64,000 nucleotides of DNA, from the NCBI RefSeq assembly GCF_024502345.1, contig NZ_JALDNN010000001.1; one strand, given 5' to 3'. This stretch comes from Escherichia coli. GTDB taxonomy: Bacteria; Pseudomonadota; Gammaproteobacteria; Enterobacterales; Enterobacteriaceae. The translations under genes and the position numbers were made by a program. Positions 23,437-57,622 of the stretch are shown here, piece by piece (position 1 is the first letter of the stretch; every line of letters begins with the position of its first letter). The notes below the pieces were generated by a model, which searched no databases, was not told the DNA's origin, and saw only the letters and a program-made list of their open reading frames with translations.

Positions 23437-23563
23437 ATATACTCGTCATACTTCAAGTTGCATGTGCTGCGTCTGCGTTCGCTCACCCCAGTCACTTACT
23501 TATGTAAGCTCCTGGGGACTCACTCACTTGTCGCCTTCCTGCAACTCGAATTATTTAGAGTAT
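23437..23563. repeat. ERIC (IRU) element, full-length about 127 bp
   Basis: TATACTCGTCATACTTCAAGTTGCATGTGCTGCG ... GAATTATTTAGAGTATA imperfect palindrome characteristic of ERIC. Confidence 0.8.
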
Positions 23564-23712
23564 AAATATTGCGTGCTGATATTAAGGCTATGCGCGTGGG
23601 GAAATTTATACTGTGAAAGGATTCACAAATAGCTGCGGTTCAGAATGTTATATCCGCAGCTTATTGAGTGAAGTAATAATTATTCTCAATAATTAACAGA
23701 AAAGAGAAAATA

Positions 23713-52708: not shown

Positions 52709-53797
52709 TCACGGCAGGCGGTGGCGGGCTTGATAATAAGCCTGCCAGTGAGCTTCTTTATGTGTGGCGACACGCTGTTCGAAGTAACGGCGCAGACGAG
52801 CGCGATCTTCTTCGTTATCTTTGACGATGGTTCCGGCAATACAGTCCACCAGATCGGCTGGCTCACCTGCGCGATTCGCTAAAAACCAGGCGCGGACGCC
52901 CACAGCGTGGGCCACGTTCACGGCTTCAGCGGTGGACATAATCGCTGTTAGTGTATCCATTGACGTTTTCTTTTCGCCGTTGGCACGCAGATCGCGGAAG
53001 GTGCGGACCAGTAACTCCAGTACCGCGTCAGGCACTTTATGCGGAATACCGCTATGGGCCAGCAAACGCGCCGAAGCACTGGCGACAAGCTCCAGCTCCT
53101 GGGCGAAATCCATAATCGGAAAGACAGTTTCAAAATCGAAGCGACGCTTTAGCGCAGCACTCATTTCATTGACGCCGCGATCGCGGGTATTGGCAGTGGC
53201 AATAATATTAAAGCCTTCTCGCGCATAGAGCTGACTGGCTTCACCAGTGAGTTCCGGCACCGTCATCACCCTGTCAGAAAGCATACCTAACAGACAGTCT
53301 TGCACTTCCAGCGGTGTACGCGTTATCTCTTCAAAACGGACGATTTTGCCGTCGCGCATTCCCTGGTAAAGCGGGGCAGGGACCAGCGCTTCCGTTGATG
53401 GACCATGATTGATAAGCAGGGCGTAGTTCCAGCCGTACTTGATTTGATCTTCGGTAGTAGATGCGCCGCCCTGGATGGTTAACCCGGCATCGCCGCTAAT
53501 AGAGGTTGCCAGTAATTCAGACAGGAGAGATTTTGCGGTGCCAGGTTCCCCCACCAACATCAAACCGCGTCCGGTGGCAAGAGTGACTAACATACGTTCG
53601 ACAGCGGAGGGACTAATCACCACTTTACGGCTAATATTTTGCGCGCTATCGCCAAGGATAAAAGCACGGGCCGCAGGCAAACTTAACTGCCAACCGGGCG
53701 GGCAAGGTGCGTTATCATTTTGTTTTAATTTTGCCAGTTCATCGGCGTATAACACAGCAGCAGGCGGACGCTGCAGATGATTATTCTGCGGTGACAT
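52709..53797 (-). CDS. yehL: MoxR-like AAA+ ATPase (362 aa from MSPQNNH start)
   Basis: ORF track (extension to 53863); Walker A GEPGTAKS and Walker B-like hhhhDE region. Confidence 0.85.
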   Translation of the reverse strand: MSPQNNHLQRPPAAVLYADELAKLKQNDNAPCPPGWQLSLPAARAFILGDSAQNISRKVVISPSAVERMLVTLATGRGLMLVGEPGTAKSLLSELLATSISGDAGLTIQGGASTTEDQIKYGWNYALLINHGPSTEALVPAPLYQGMRDGKIVRFEEITRTPLEVQDCLLGMLSDRVMTVPELTGEASQLYAREGFNIIATANTRDRGVNEMSAALKRRFDFETVFPIMDFAQELELVASASARLLAHSGIPHKVPDAVLELLVRTFRDLRANGEKKTSMDTLTAIMSTAEAVNVAHAVGVRAWFLANRAGEPADLVDCIAGTIVKDNEEDRARLRRYFEQRVATHKEAHWQAYYQARHRLP

Positions 53798-53908
53798 ATA
53801 TTCATCCCTGAAATGTATTAATGAAATAAACGATATTTTACGCGCAATAAATGTTTGGCGCATTAGTTGTTTGAGCGAAAAATATCTGGAAAGCAGATCA
53901 CAGTAAAT

Positions 53909-53991
53909 AAAAAAACCTGCTGGTGAGGCAGGTTCTTTTATTTACTATTTTCAGGCCTAACACCACAGCCTGTGCAACATCGTGTTCCAAC
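53909..53991 (-). ncRNA. orzP: Predicted ~80-nt divergent small RNA (OrzO/OrzP-like antitoxin RNA), copy A
   Basis: Minus-strand promoter (-35 TTGCAA 54021-54026, 17-bp spacer, -10 TATAAT 53998-54003); minus-strand intrinsic terminator (stem ACCTGC/GCAGGT then U7) at 53909-53934; 5' region repeats leader sequence at 54138-54157. Confidence 0.5.
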
Positions 53992-54020
53992 GAACGAATT
54001 ATAACCACGGCTGGACCCCG

Positions 54021-54048
54021 TTGCAATTAAGATAATGAGATTTATAAT
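54021..54048 (+). promoter_or_regulatory. Sigma70 promoter of peptide gene copy A (-35 TTGCAA, 16-bp spacer, -10 TATAAT); -35 shared with the divergent sRNA promoter
   Basis: Hexamers read directly; predicted TSS near 54056 gives a ~174-nt leader. Confidence 0.6.
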
Positions 54049-54229
54049 CCTGACTGTTGGGACGTTGCGCCGGATCGAACCTATTTCAAGTCCTGGCTAC
54101 CGGACGGGGGGTGCTGCAGGTAGTGCCCTGATCCGGAGTGCAACATCGTGGTCCAACATACGTAAACCAGTATCGACAGGCAGTGTAAGGGTAAGGTGCT
54201 GGTGTTGCGCTCCTTAATAAGGAGAGCGG

Positions 54230-54319
54230 ATGGACTCGCTGACACAAAAGTTAACCGTGCTCATTGCTGTACTGGAGCTATTAGTGGCTCTGTTACGGTT
54301 GATTGATTTGTTGAAGTAA
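54230..54319 (+). CDS. zorP: 29-aa hydrophobic peptide MDSLTQKLTVLIAVLELLVALLRLIDLLK (type I toxin candidate, ZorO/ZorP-like), copy A
   Basis: ATG with AAGGAG SD 7 nt upstream; single predicted TM helix; sequence as I recall ZorO-family toxins; symbol O versus P uncertain. Confidence 0.7.
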   Translation: MDSLTQKLTVLIAVLELLVALLRLIDLLK

Positions 54320-54518: not shown

Positions 54519-54599
54519 AAAAAAACCTGCTGGTGAGGCAGGTTCTTTTATTTACTACAGTGACGCTAACTTGCTGATTGTGCAACATTTCGTACCAAC
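54519..54599 (-). ncRNA. orzO: Predicted ~80-nt divergent small RNA, copy B
   Basis: Minus-strand -10 TATAAT (54606-54611) and shared -35 TTGCAA (54629-54634); terminator hairpin plus U7 at 54519-54543; 18-nt complementarity (one G-U) to leader at 54749-54766. Confidence 0.5.
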
Positions 54600-54837: not shown

Positions 54838-54927
54838 ATGGACACGCTGACACAAAAGTTAACCGTGCTCATTGCCGTACTGGAGTTATTAGTGGCTCTG
54901 TTACGGTTGATTGATTTGTTGAAGTAA
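54838..54927 (+). CDS. zorO: 29-aa hydrophobic peptide MDTLTQKLTVLIAVLELLVALLRLIDLLK (type I toxin candidate), copy B
   Basis: ATG with AAGGAG SD; differs from copy A by S3T only. Confidence 0.7.
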   Translation: MDTLTQKLTVLIAVLELLVALLRLIDLLK

Positions 54928-54949
54928 CGGGCAAATTGAAACGCATCTA

Positions 54950-54974
54950 AGGGGGAATACCGTTTCCCCCTTTA
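54950..54974 (+). terminator. Terminator of peptide gene copy B
   Basis: AGGGGGAA-loop-TTCCCCCT then TTTAAG. Confidence 0.5.
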
Positions 54975-54982
54975 AGAAAGCT

Positions 54983-55036
54983 ATACTCGTCATACTTCAA
55001 GTTGCATGTGCTGCGACTTTAATTATCTAGAGTATA
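54983..55036. repeat. Truncated (short-form) ERIC element: left and right termini without the central part
   Basis: TATACTCGTCATACTTCAAGTTGCATGTGCTGCG + ACTTTAATTATCTAGAGTATA; compare full copy at 23437-23563. Confidence 0.7.
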
Positions 55037-55354
55037 TTATTCTATTTCTTGGTTGAATATATTCTGTAGTTCACGATTAAAAATTGCTATTACAGTTTCA
55101 GGTGATTCACCTCGTAATTTCCGCTCATCAATACACTCATCTCTTATATAAATCAACGCATCATTTATTAGCGGGTCAGCATCTTCTCGATCACGTTGAT
55201 GAAATGTTGGATGTAGCCGGAATCGCTCCAGTCGATAGACGGAACCTGTAAATAATTCAGAGCATTTATGGATCTCAAGTCTGAAGGAAAACGGATCTTC
55301 AGGTACAGGGACCTCATAATCGTAAATAGCAACTAGCTCTTTTTGCACGATCAT
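55037..55354 (-). CDS. yehK: Uncharacterised small protein, 105 aa
   Basis: ORF track; synteny between yehL and yehI. Confidence 0.7.
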   Translation of the reverse strand: MIVQKELVAIYDYEVPVPEDPFSFRLEIHKCSELFTGSVYRLERFRLHPTFHQRDREDADPLINDALIYIRDECIDERKLRGESPETVIAIFNRELQNIFNQEIE

Positions 55355-55414: not shown

Positions 55415-57622
55415 TTAATGGAAAATGACGTCAGGTGCGCTTAACGCCTCACTCAAATCAAACACATCAAGTTCGGCAAAAGTGACGGATTTATTGTCAC
55501 GGTACACTCGAAGAGAACGGAAGCTCATTAGCGCTTTGCTATCAACATTGTAGTGGTTAAAACCGGGTGAAAACTTAAGGACCAGCCGGTACTCGCCCAG
55601 GTCATAGACAAATGCATCCTCATAGCCTGACTCCCAGCCTTTGTATCGCATTCCCATAAGCTGCCCAACGGTAGCGGATTTACCTTCCCAGCGAGTCAGG
55701 CTGTTACTGGTTGACTCGTCAGGTGTGAGCAGCACCGTGCACCGCGCCAACTGGCGAAAAGGCGGCATAATTTCGTAATCGGCAAAAAGCTGTGCAAATT
55801 CACTGCGCATTTCTACTGTCATTTCTAACGGGTGGGCAATGCCAATCAGAGCGTCCGCAGGCAGGTCAATTGGCTCATCTTGCGCATTGCAGAACTCCCC
55901 CTCTGCGGCCACACGAAAGGCGTTGAGTAAACAACGCGGTTCATTTGCCGGATAAGCCCCCCATATTAATCGCTGGGTAACCAGACGGGTAAAGGGATGA
56001 TTAACAAACAGAGAATGAAAATCTGCCAGCGACCAGCGTCGGGTGGTACGTAGGGCCGTTTCAAGACGCGGGAGCAGGTTTTTGCTCACCTGAGTGGCAT
56101 CTTTTTTTAGCCCTTTTAGTCGGGCCAGTGCCTCGGGCGCTTTCAGTTGATCGTCATCGGCGCGCAACCGGGGAACGCTTTTCTGGCGAACGTTTTGCTG
56201 ATCAAAGATAACCGGGTTGAGGTTTTCATCGAAGCGAACGGTAAACTGCCGGGGACCAAAATCAAAACTCAACGCCTGCGGATCATCAAGGCCCAGGGTT
56301 GGGACTAATCTGTCCGCTAGCTCTTCCTGGCTTAGCCCGCGATTTTCTGCGACCACCTGAAGAAATTCCGCCGCGTTATCACGTAAGGGGCGGGATTTCG
56401 CCCGTTGCGATATATGATGCAGCTGTATCAGCGCCATATCATTATTCATCAGGGTAAGGATGTTCAGGCCACTGACAGCACGGGCAGATTTGCCTTCTTG
56501 TGGCCAGCCGAGGATCTGTGTCGTTAGATCCCGTGCCGTGCTTTCGTCACCAAAGAGACTTAACGCCAGAAATGCCCAGTTGTCTTTTACGGGGGCACCA
56601 GCTTGTTGCCACGCAGTGAAGAGATCCCAGGCAAAAGCTGCCAGCGTTTGTGGCTGGCAGAACGTTTTCAGTTGTTCCAGCCCGCTATAAAAACGTCCCC
56701 CCTGGGTAAAGCGCAGCATTTCGCCGATAATTTCCAGAGCGTCATCGGTAACAGGTTGATTATTAGTGATAAGGCGCGGCCTGGACCACATTTGCGGATG
56801 CCAGAAATCAGGGGCTTTTGGAATGCGTGCCGGGTAAATCTCTATTGGACTCTGTTTAAGTAATTGTTCCAGGGCAGGCCATAGATCTGTACGCTGCCAA
56901 CGATTGGCTACAGTTTGTAGCAATTCGCCATGCCCATGTTCGTAAAGTAAACGCAGGGCAAGTAATGCAGCTTCGCTTTTATCGCTAGATTTGGTGAAGA
57001 CAAGAGGGATAAGTGCAGTAGCCGTATGTTCCGGCCATTGTAAAATCCACTGGCGAGCCAGATTACGCTGGCCCGCAAAACGCTGCCAGCAGCTTTCCTC
57101 TGCCAGAGAGAGATGCTTACGCAGTCGGAGATCGAATTCGTTATAGGTTTCTGAGCGATAACCATAGCCATAATCCTCGTCCTGATACTGCAATGTCACT
57201 ACCAGAGGATCACTCTCATAACACCGCGCAATAAACTGGCGTGCAATCACCACCTCAGTCGCATATTCCAGCCCCTCTTGTTGGACGATTTCGTCGAGCA
57301 ACTGTTGGCTGTCATTTTGCGCGATACAGGCTAGCGCCGCCATTGTCCGGGGCGGGATTGAGGGTTTGTGTTCGCCGATCAAGTTGATGGCCTGCGTGAT
57401 GGCGGACTGCCACTCCAGTGAAAAATTTTCATAACGCCAGACAATGTTTTTTTTCTTCTCAGCTTTTTGTAGCAATTCATCACCCAGTGTCTGAATGATG
57501 CTTTCAGTGATAACAGGCACTGGTTCGCCCGGCCAATTGCGATGGCTGAGTGGTGTTTTACCATTTTTATATTTCAGTTCCAGTTGGGCGTTATCAGCCA
57601 GCCACGGTAATTCCTTGTCCAT
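55415..57622 (-). CDS. yehI: DUF4132-family protein, 735 aa; shorter paralog of the adjacent 1264-aa gene
   Basis: ORF track; ATG with AAGGAAAG SD 9 nt after the upstream stop; aligns to the longer paralog from about residue 105 and skips its central ~420 residues. Confidence 0.7.
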   Translation of the reverse strand: MDKELPWLADNAQLELKYKNGKTPLSHRNWPGEPVPVITESIIQTLGDELLQKAEKKKNIVWRYENFSLEWQSAITQAINLIGEHKPSIPPRTMAALACIAQNDSQQLLDEIVQQEGLEYATEVVIARQFIARCYESDPLVVTLQYQDEDYGYGYRSETYNEFDLRLRKHLSLAEESCWQRFAGQRNLARQWILQWPEHTATALIPLVFTKSSDKSEAALLALRLLYEHGHGELLQTVANRWQRTDLWPALEQLLKQSPIEIYPARIPKAPDFWHPQMWSRPRLITNNQPVTDDALEIIGEMLRFTQGGRFYSGLEQLKTFCQPQTLAAFAWDLFTAWQQAGAPVKDNWAFLALSLFGDESTARDLTTQILGWPQEGKSARAVSGLNILTLMNNDMALIQLHHISQRAKSRPLRDNAAEFLQVVAENRGLSQEELADRLVPTLGLDDPQALSFDFGPRQFTVRFDENLNPVIFDQQNVRQKSVPRLRADDDQLKAPEALARLKGLKKDATQVSKNLLPRLETALRTTRRWSLADFHSLFVNHPFTRLVTQRLIWGAYPANEPRCLLNAFRVAAEGEFCNAQDEPIDLPADALIGIAHPLEMTVEMRSEFAQLFADYEIMPPFRQLARCTVLLTPDESTSNSLTRWEGKSATVGQLMGMRYKGWESGYEDAFVYDLGEYRLVLKFSPGFNHYNVDSKALMSFRSLRVYRDNKSVTFAELDVFDLSEALSAPDVIFH

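What the first reader, a model, noticed from the sequence alone, without database searches (positions are those of the whole stretch)
54983..55036. Truncated ERIC element abutting the TA-like module and the yehK stop codon
A short-form ERIC (both termini, central part missing) lies directly between the unit B terminator and the yehK stop, while a full 127-bp ERIC lies at 23437-23563. Repeats at the edge of a strain-variable insertion may mark the recombination or insertion junction of the tandem TA modules.
Basis: partly seen in the sequence, partly recalled or inferred. Interest (0 to 1): 0.3.

Follow-up and report, generated by a model that had tools for sequence, protein, structure and literature searches.

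The report
Decayed ERIC repeat beside yehK stop
A 55-bp internally deleted copy of the common enterobacterial ERIC repeat sits right after the yehK stop codon; it is an ordinary old mobile-element insertion that did not bring in the neighbouring toxin-antitoxin genes, although it was one breakpoint of the deletion that removed those toxin genes from K-12-like strains.

Summary
Window 54982-55036 is a 55-bp ERIC with both termini and no centre. It lies 10 nt after the module-B zor terminator and directly against the yehK stop codon (55037-55039). A full 127-bp ERIC lies at 23438-23564.

The same TA dinucleotide carries an allelic series in 5,426 complete E. coli genomes:
- empty site, zor terminator abutting yehK: 1,395
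- full 127-bp ERIC: 685
- 205-bp ERIC with an internal insertion: 255
- window-type 55-bp ERIC: about 917-950
- a second 55-bp form (CFT073/Nissle): 92
- a 17-nt ERIC right terminus fused to the zorO 5'UTR (K-12 type): 1,840

E. whittamii has two zor-orz modules and an empty site. So the TA modules predate the ERIC, and the ERIC is not their insertion junction.

The short form matches a 72-bp deletion between two 8-bp direct repeats (CTGCGACT) in the full copy at this site. The same deletion recurs at the yafP/rtcB locus.

K-12 is not a naive site. It keeps orzO and lost the toxin through one deletion that ends inside the ERIC.

This is a known kind of element and of low interest.

The parts
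54982..55036 (+). 55-bp internally deleted ERIC (MITE), in the same orientation as the full copy at 23438-23564. It has 7-bp perfect terminal inverted repeats, TATACTC...GAGTATA.
   Evidence: Folds as a hairpin: -16.5 kcal/mol on the plus strand and -14.5 on the minus strand, z about -3.7.
54982..54983 (.). Left TA of the duplicated TA target.
   Evidence: Empty alleles have a single TA here (…AAAGC-TA-TTTTTC / …AAAC-TA-TTATTC). Filled alleles have TA[TACTC…GAGTA]TA. The net gain for the full copy is 125 bp, i.e. 123 + 2.
55035..55036 (.). Right TA of the duplicated TA target, directly abutting the yehK stop codon.
55011..55018 (+). CTGCGACT, the surviving copy of the 8-bp direct repeat across which the central 72 bp were lost.
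   Evidence: In the orthologous 127-bp copy (L006) CTGCGACT occurs at positions 29 and 101. Deleting between them gives a 55-mer that differs from the window copy at 2 of 55 positions.
55037..55354 (-). yehK (105 aa). Its stop codon TAA is at 55037-55039.
   Evidence: Annotated as yehK in matching RefSeq genomes.
54949..54972 (+). Terminator hairpin of zor module B (AAGGGGGAATACCGTTTCCCCCTT). It is palindromic and so also folds on the yehK strand.
54838..54927 (+). zor toxin ORF of module B (29 aa, MDTLTQKLTVLIAVLELLVALLRLIDLLK).
   Evidence: Read from the sequence. Family described in PMC3919570 and PMC11264685.
54519..54592 (-). orz antitoxin sRNA gene of module B.
   Evidence: Rfam RF02083, 88.8 bits.
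54230..54319 (+). zor toxin ORF of module A (29 aa, MDSLTQKL…, the T3S variant).
   Evidence: Read from the sequence.
53909..53984 (-). orz antitoxin sRNA gene of module A. This is the gene retained in K-12-type genomes.
   Evidence: Rfam RF02083, 99.9 bits.
52709..53863 (-). yehL.
23438..23564 (+). Full-length 127-bp ERIC, used as the reference copy.
   Evidence: Hairpin of -39.7 kcal/mol, z -5.5.

Best explanation
The feature is a decayed copy of ERIC (also called IRU or RU-1), a non-autonomous MITE-like repeat of enterobacteria.

1. A full 127-bp ERIC inserted into a TA dinucleotide immediately 3' of the yehK stop codon and duplicated the TA. The zor-orz modules were already at this locus.
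2. The filled and the empty alleles have both persisted in Escherichia, and recombination has moved them onto different backgrounds.
3. In the lineage of this window (shared with O157:H7, O111:H8 and others) the copy lost its central 72 bp. The loss was a deletion between two 8-bp direct repeats (CTGCGACT) that flank the central stem. I infer replication slippage favoured by the hairpin. It left a 55-bp mini-hairpin.
4. In another lineage (K-12, BL21 and about a third of E. coli) a single deletion ran from about nt 30 of the zorO 5'UTR to 17 nt before the ERIC right end. It joined the imperfect repeats CAATTT and CAACTT. It removed the toxin gene or genes and left an orphan orzO.

Shown by comparison: the insertion site, the TA duplication, both deletion junctions and the allele frequencies.

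Inferred: the slippage mechanism, and any present-day function. At most the element adds a hairpin to the yehK 3'UTR directly after the stop codon. By analogy with Yersinia ERICs, that could modulate mRNA decay.
For: Identity as ERIC:
- Exact 32-nt match to the full copy, with 0 expected by chance.
- The ERIC primer sites are present in the full copy.
- 7-bp terminal inverted repeats and a hairpin fold.

Empty versus filled site with a TA duplication:
- Empty: L002, L003, L008-L011 and E. whittamii L018.
- Filled: L006, L012, L016. The difference is 125 bp.

In-situ 72-bp deletion:
- The simulated deletion in L006 reproduces the window copy at 53 of 55 positions.
- The locus-specific variant ATCTAGAG is shared with the full copies of E. 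coli at this site (L006, L012).
- The same empty / full / short series, with the same breakpoints, occurs at the yafP/rtcB locus and keeps that locus's own SNP, GTACTGCG.

Census of 5,426 genomes: empty 1,395; filled 1,977 (full 685, long 255, pal55 92, window-type about 917-950); K-12 fusion 1,840.

K-12 junction: read directly. The parental sequence CAATTTTAAGTCC is seen in L008 and L010. orzO is intact in K-12. This agrees with the published figure of more than 30% orz-only genomes (PMC11264685).

Family properties (terminal inverted repeats, TA duplication, co-transcription, RNase E-dependent and orientation-dependent mRNA effects) come from the reviews PMC2229807, PMC3184786 and PMC2759123.
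Against: - The direction of change (insertion versus precise excision) rests on one deep outgroup, E. whittamii, and on shared flanking SNPs. Two other non-coli Escherichia genomes are filled, so the polymorphism is old and its history is blurred by recombination.
- The short form could in principle have been copied in by gene conversion from another short ERIC (yafP or speF loci) rather than deleted in situ. The locus-specific SNPs argue against this but do not exclude it.
- About 214 genomes (4%) were not classified.
- No transcript or stability data were examined, so any functional role is analogy only.
- The primary ERIC survey of E. coli (Wilson and Sharp 2006) could not be read.
Confidence: 0.85

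Rival explanations
1. One reading: the ERIC fragment is the scar or substrate of the event that inserted or duplicated the tandem zor-orz modules between yehL and yehK.
For: The ERIC lies at the edge of a region that differs between K-12 and this window. Repeats are known to sit in plastic regions (PMC3184786).
Against: - 1,395 genomes and E. whittamii have the modules but no ERIC.
- One-module and two-module alleles both occur with and without ERIC.
- The module duplication is a 608-bp tandem repeat with no ERIC sequence at its internal junction.
- K-12 retains orzO, so the difference from K-12 is a deletion.
Confidence: 0.03
2. The 55-bp form is a separately propagating short ERIC subfamily. 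On this view it inserted here, or replaced the full copy by gene conversion, and did not arise by deletion in situ.
For: 55-bp copies with the same internal junction exist at two or more other loci: yafP/rtcB and speF-speFL. At speF only the short form was seen among the sampled rows.
Against: - At both yehK and yafP the full 127-bp allele occupies exactly the same TA site in other strains.
- At each locus the short allele keeps that locus's private SNPs: ATCTAGAG at yehK and GTACTGCG at yafP.
- The breakpoints coincide with an 8-bp direct repeat inside the full copy, as a slippage deletion would predict.
Confidence: 0.1
3. The short ERIC is retained because it functions. It would be a 3'UTR hairpin directly after the yehK stop codon that tunes yehK mRNA decay or insulates the convergent zor and yehK transcripts.
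For: - Stable hairpin on both strands.
- It abuts the stop codon, the geometry in which ribosome-dependent exposure of an RNase E site in ERIC RNA was proposed for Yersinia (reviewed in PMC2229807).
- The short allele is common, at about 17% of genomes.
Against: - All states (empty, full, long, short, remnant) are frequent, which looks like neutral drift and recombination rather than selection.
- The zor terminator hairpin already lies between the two genes.
- No expression data were examined.
Confidence: 0.1

Closest known systems
[quoted passage not shown] 1991; Wilson and Sharp 2006; De Gregorio et al. 2005)
   Same: - Terminal sequences and 7-bp terminal inverted repeats.
- TA at both ends, with a TA target duplication.
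- Intergenic position next to a gene's 3' end.
- Imperfect-palindrome hairpin.
- Size variants, with shorter (internal deletion) and longer (about 70-80-bp internal insertion) forms at the same site.
   Different: The window copy lacks the conserved 72-bp centre, including both ERIC-PCR primer sites. It is a degenerate derivative, not a canonical 127-bp unit.
zor-orz type I toxin-antitoxin locus and 'orz-only' loci (Wen et al. 2014, PMC3919570; Shore et al. 2024, PMC11264685)
   Same: The flanking modules are zor-orz, with Rfam OrzO-P hits and the 29-aa Zor peptide. About 34% of genomes have orz only, matching the published figure of more than 30%.
   Different: Those papers do not mention ERIC or yehK (0 occurrences). 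Here the orz-only allele is traced to one shared junction, zorO 5'UTR fused to the ERIC right terminus.
Slippage deletions between short direct repeats that flank hairpin-forming DNA (a general mutational mechanism; stated from my own knowledge)
   Same: The 72-bp loss is bounded by 8-bp direct repeats (CTGCGACT / CTGCRACT) on either side of the central stem-loop. It recurs at two loci.
   Different: The mechanism is inferred from the end products only. No experimental rate data were available.

Membership tests
ERIC (IRU/RU-1) MITE | Sequence similarity of the termini to the ERIC consensus | tested here: met
   The left 32 nt are identical to the full copy in the window, and 22 of 26 nt match at the right end. 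The full copy is itself validated by the ERIC2 (0 mismatches) and ERIC1R (1 mismatch) primer sites.
ERIC (IRU/RU-1) MITE | Conserved central core (the ERIC1R/ERIC2 region) within a unit of about 127 bp | tested here: not met
   No primer-site match at 54982-55036 and the length is 55 bp. Orthologous copies at the same site in other strains are 127 bp and have the core (L006, L012, L016). The window copy is therefore a deletion derivative of a true member.
ERIC (IRU/RU-1) MITE | Terminal inverted repeats and a stable stem-loop | tested here: met
   TATACTC…GAGTATA. MFE -16.5 and -14.5 kcal/mol, z -3.8 and -3.7, with 0 of 200 shuffles folding as well.
ERIC (IRU/RU-1) MITE | Insertion at TA with TA target-site duplication (PMC2759123, PMC2229807) | tested here: met
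   Empty alleles carry a single TA and filled alleles carry TA on both sides. The net size difference is 125 bp for the full copy. The same holds at the yafP/rtcB locus.
ERIC (IRU/RU-1) MITE | Located in a transcribed intergenic region and co-transcribed with a neighbouring gene | not testable with these tools
   The position is intergenic, directly 3' of the yehK stop and upstream (on that strand) of the only hairpin terminator. No transcript data were available.
zor-orz type I toxin-antitoxin (context) | Orz sRNA gene divergent from a 29-aa hydrophobic Zor ORF with a long 5'UTR | tested here: met
   Two RF02083 hits above the gathering score. Two 29-aa ORFs read. Promoter-like TTGCAA/TATAAT pairs on both strands.

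The most novel reading that the evidence does not exclude
The ERIC copy at this site may have been an active source of instability with regulatory after-effects.
- Its hairpin-prone DNA supplied the breakpoint for the single ancestral deletion that removed the zor toxin genes from about a third of E. coli.
- In those genomes the intact zorO promoter sits about 50 nt from the yehK stop with no terminator between them, so it may drive an antisense transcript into yehK-yehI.
- The recurrent, breakpoint-identical 72-bp deletion would make ERIC a predictable slippage hot spot.
Probability: 0.2. Interest if true: 0.35.

Novelty: already known. Interest (0 to 1): 0.15.

Why it matters
The result matters mostly as a clarification.
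- The ERIC fragment is not evidence that zor-orz is a recently inserted island. The TA locus is ancestral at yehL-yehK, and laboratory strains lost the toxin by a deletion that ended in the ERIC.
- That gives a precise molecular origin for the published 'orz-only' allele.
- It is also a caution for work in K-12: the strain is not free of orzO.
- The site is a clean natural series (empty, full, long, two short forms, remnant) that illustrates how ERIC copies decay.

Tried and rejected
- MAFFT pairwise alignment of the short and full copies misplaced the right terminus. I replaced it with direct comparison and a simulated deletion.
- Rfam has no ERIC family. The only hit on the element is a sub-threshold match to part of isrH (20.8 bits against a gathering score of 45), probably because that Salmonella sRNA model contains ERIC-like sequence. 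I did not pursue it.
- Wilson and Sharp 2006, the key survey of ERIC in E. coli, is not held in the library. Whether this exact locus is listed there is unknown to me.
- The genome-contig scan with YehK returned only three non-coli Escherichia loci. E. albertii, E. fergusonii and Salmonella could therefore not be used to polarise the insertion.
- Precise excision as the origin of the empty alleles is considered unlikely. Empty alleles share flanking variants with the E. whittamii empty site (e.g. TATTTGTTGG in L002) rather than with the filled haplotypes. This is not formally excluded.
- Flank haplotype comparison shows ERIC state is uncoupled from flank similarity: L002 is identical to the window over 400 bp on the left, yet it is empty. 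That points to recombination, so I did not attempt a simple tree-based count of events.

Full report
**What is at the coordinates**

Window 54982-55036 reads TATACTCGTCATACTTCAAGTTGCATGTGCTGCGACTTTAATTATCTAGAGTATA, 55 bp.
- Its first 32 internal bases are identical to window 23440-23471. This pattern occurs only at these two places in the 64 kb, with none expected in 100 shuffles.
- The copy at 23438-23564 is a canonical 127-bp ERIC. It contains the ERIC2 primer site with no mismatch (23480-23501, minus strand) and the ERIC1R site with one mismatch (23502-23523) (primer sequences as printed in PMC3696847).
- The short copy has neither site. Its right end (CTGCGACTTTAATTATCTAGAGTATA) matches the right end of the full copy (CTGCAACTCGAATTATTTAGAGTATA) at 22 of 26 positions.
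The coordinates are off by one base for both copies.
- The short copy folds into a hairpin on either strand: -16.5 and -14.5 kcal/mol, z about -3.7.

**Context**

The element lies between two convergent units.
- On the plus strand are two tandem zor-orz type I toxin-antitoxin modules. They form a 608-bp direct repeat at 86-95% identity.
  - Rfam OrzO-P hits lie at 53909-53984 and 54519-54592 on the minus strand, at 99.9 and 88.8 bits against a gathering score of 60.
  - The 29-aa Zor ORFs lie at 54230-54319 and 54838-54927.
  - The module-B terminator hairpin lies at 54949-54972.
- On the minus strand, yehK (55037-55354) ends with TAA at 55037-55039. The ERIC therefore begins on the base after the stop codon.

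**The same site in other genomes**

A 2-kb query across yehL-yehK hit 5,424 of 5,426 complete E. coli genomes, with several discrete span lengths. Reading representatives shows an allelic series at one and the same TA dinucleotide:

| State | Example loci | Sequence feature |
|---|---|---|
| Empty | L002, L003, L008-L011 | …CCCCCTTTAATAAAGC-TA-TTTTTCTATTT… |
| Full, 127 bp | L006, L012 | canonical ERIC |
| Long, 205 bp | L007 | 78-bp insertion inside the ERIC |
| Short, 55 bp (window form) | window, EDL933 L004 | centre deleted |
| Second 55-bp form | L005, CFT073/Nissle | right arm is a near-perfect reverse complement of the left arm |
| K-12 form | L001 | only GAATTATTTAGAGTATA, the last 17 nt of ERIC, remains |

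- A filled site with the full copy is 125 bp longer than an empty site: 123 bp of element plus a second TA.
- This is the TA target duplication described for ERIC (PMC2759123, PMC2229807).

**Census with junction-specific queries**

| Allele | Genomes |
|---|---|
| Window-type short | about 917-950 |
| K-12 fusion | 1,840 |
| Empty | 1,395 |
| ERIC left end joined to the zor terminator (all filled forms) | 1,977 |
| of which long | 255 |
| of which full | 685 |
| of which CFT073-type | 92 |

The filled sub-classes add up to the filled total within about 30. The empty, filled and K-12 classes cover 5,212 of 5,426 genomes.

**Outgroups**

A YehK-based scan of one genome per species returned three non-coli Escherichia loci.
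- E. whittamii has two zor-orz modules and an empty site (…AAAC-TA-TTATTC…). Its yehK already ends GAA TAA.
- Escherichia sp. E1V33 has one module and a full ERIC.
- Escherichia sp. MOD1-EC7003 has one module and the long ERIC.

Three conclusions follow.
- zor-orz is ancestral at this locus.
- The ERIC inserted later, next to an existing stop codon and without changing the protein.
- The presence/absence polymorphism is old.

Flank comparison shows that ERIC state is uncoupled from flank similarity. L002, for example, is identical to the window over 400 bp on the left and 1% different on the right, yet it is empty. This indicates recombination. L002's immediate flank carries variants seen at the E. 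whittamii empty site, which argues against precise excision.

**How the short form arose**

- In the 127-bp copy at this site (L006) the octamer CTGCGACT occurs twice, at positions 29 and 101.
- Removing one repeat and the intervening sequence (72 bp) gives a 55-mer that differs from the window copy at two positions.
- The window copy also shares the site-specific variant ATCTAGAG with the full copies of E. coli at this site (L006, L012).
- The same series exists at a second locus, between yafP and an rtcB-like gene: empty (ATCC 25922, L020), full 127 bp (a K-12-like strain, L019) and short 55 bp (L013).
  - The breakpoints are the same (CTGCGACT / CTGCAACT).
  - The short allele keeps that locus's own SNP, GTACTGCG.
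- A third short copy lies between speF and speFL.
- I therefore read the short form as a recurrent in-situ deletion between direct repeats flanking the central stem. Slippage is the inferred mechanism. Gene conversion from another short copy is a weaker alternative.

**K-12 and the 'strain-variable insertion'**

K-12 (L001) is not a naive site.
- It has a complete orzO (99.9 bits), the shared promoter region and about 30 nt of the zorO 5'UTR.
- It then reads …CGGATCGGACCAATTT|GAATTATTTAGAGTATA|TTA.
- The parental sequences are CAATTT-TAAGTCC in the UTR (seen in L008 and L010) and CAACTT-GAATTA in the ERIC (L016). The junction therefore lies between imperfect 6-bp repeats.
- Exactly this junction is present in 1,840 genomes, or 34%. 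This matches the published observation that more than 30% of E. coli have orz only (PMC11264685).
- That paper and the original zor-orz paper do not mention ERIC or yehK. The earlier paper treated MG1655 as lacking the locus.

**Verdict**

- The idea that the ERIC marks the junction at which the TA modules arrived is not supported. Modules occur without ERIC in a quarter of E. coli genomes and in E. whittamii, and module number varies independently of ERIC state.
- A junction relationship does exist, but for loss: the ERIC is the right-hand breakpoint of the deletion that created the orz-only allele.
- Functionally the element is most likely a neutral, decaying MITE.
- A role as a 3'UTR hairpin affecting yehK mRNA stability is possible by analogy with Yersinia ERICs (reviewed in PMC2229807), but it is untested.
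- The kind of element, its size variants and the TA locus are all known. The new points are the detailed allelic series and the origin of the orz-only allele, and both are minor.

Noticed in passing
L001 (K-12 MC1061) 710-785 and 837-904; equivalent to window 53909-54086: K-12-type genomes keep a full-scoring orzO antitoxin gene and the zorO promoter (TTGCAA-16-TATAAT). The zorO promoter now points at the yehK stop about 50 nt away with no terminator between them, so an antisense transcript into yehK is conceivable. Experiments that used MG1655 as a 'zor-orz-free' host (PMC3919570) had a chromosomal orzO present.
   Followed up: partly
L005 (strain N39) 1175-1229; also CFT073 and Nissle 1917: A second 55-bp ERIC form, found in 92 genomes. 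Its right arm (ACTTGAAGTATGATGAGTATA) differs at 5 clustered positions from the usual right arm. It is almost the exact reverse complement of the left arm, which looks like quasi-palindrome correction by template switching.
   Followed up: partly
L007 ~1210-1290 and L017; 255 E. coli genomes including type strain ATCC 11775: A 205-bp ERIC carrying a 78-bp GC-rich insertion (GGGTTATTCGGCCCATCC…GCGGATTT) just after the left CTGCGACTGCG. It is shared with a non-coli Escherichia, so it is old. The nature of the inserted piece was not examined.
   Followed up: no
window 57079-57089 (inside yehI, ORF 55415-57622): Relative to the closest genome, MLI023K1 (99.9% identity over 10 kb), the window lacks about 1,425 bp of yehI between 11-bp direct repeats. 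This leaves a 735-aa in-frame ORF instead of about 1,210 aa.
   Followed up: partly
L002, L008, L010 (yehK 321 bp) and L009 (354 bp) versus window 55037-55039: In many empty-site alleles the TAA stop of yehK is mutated (TTA to TTT or ATA on the plus strand). yehK then ends one codon later at the TAG that contains the ERIC target TA. In L009 that stop is lost as well and the ORF runs into the zor terminator.
   Followed up: partly
window 54982-55036 minus strand: A sub-threshold Rfam match to positions 161-216 of the Salmonella isrH model (20.8 bits, E 0.006). This suggests the isrH seed includes ERIC-derived sequence.
   Followed up: no
window 54230-54319 versus 54838-54927: The yehL-proximal module encodes the T3S Zor variant (MDSL…) and the yehK-proximal module encodes the MDTL… variant. 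Single-module strains carry either O-like or P-like modules, consistent with unequal crossing-over between the 608-bp repeats.
   Followed up: partly
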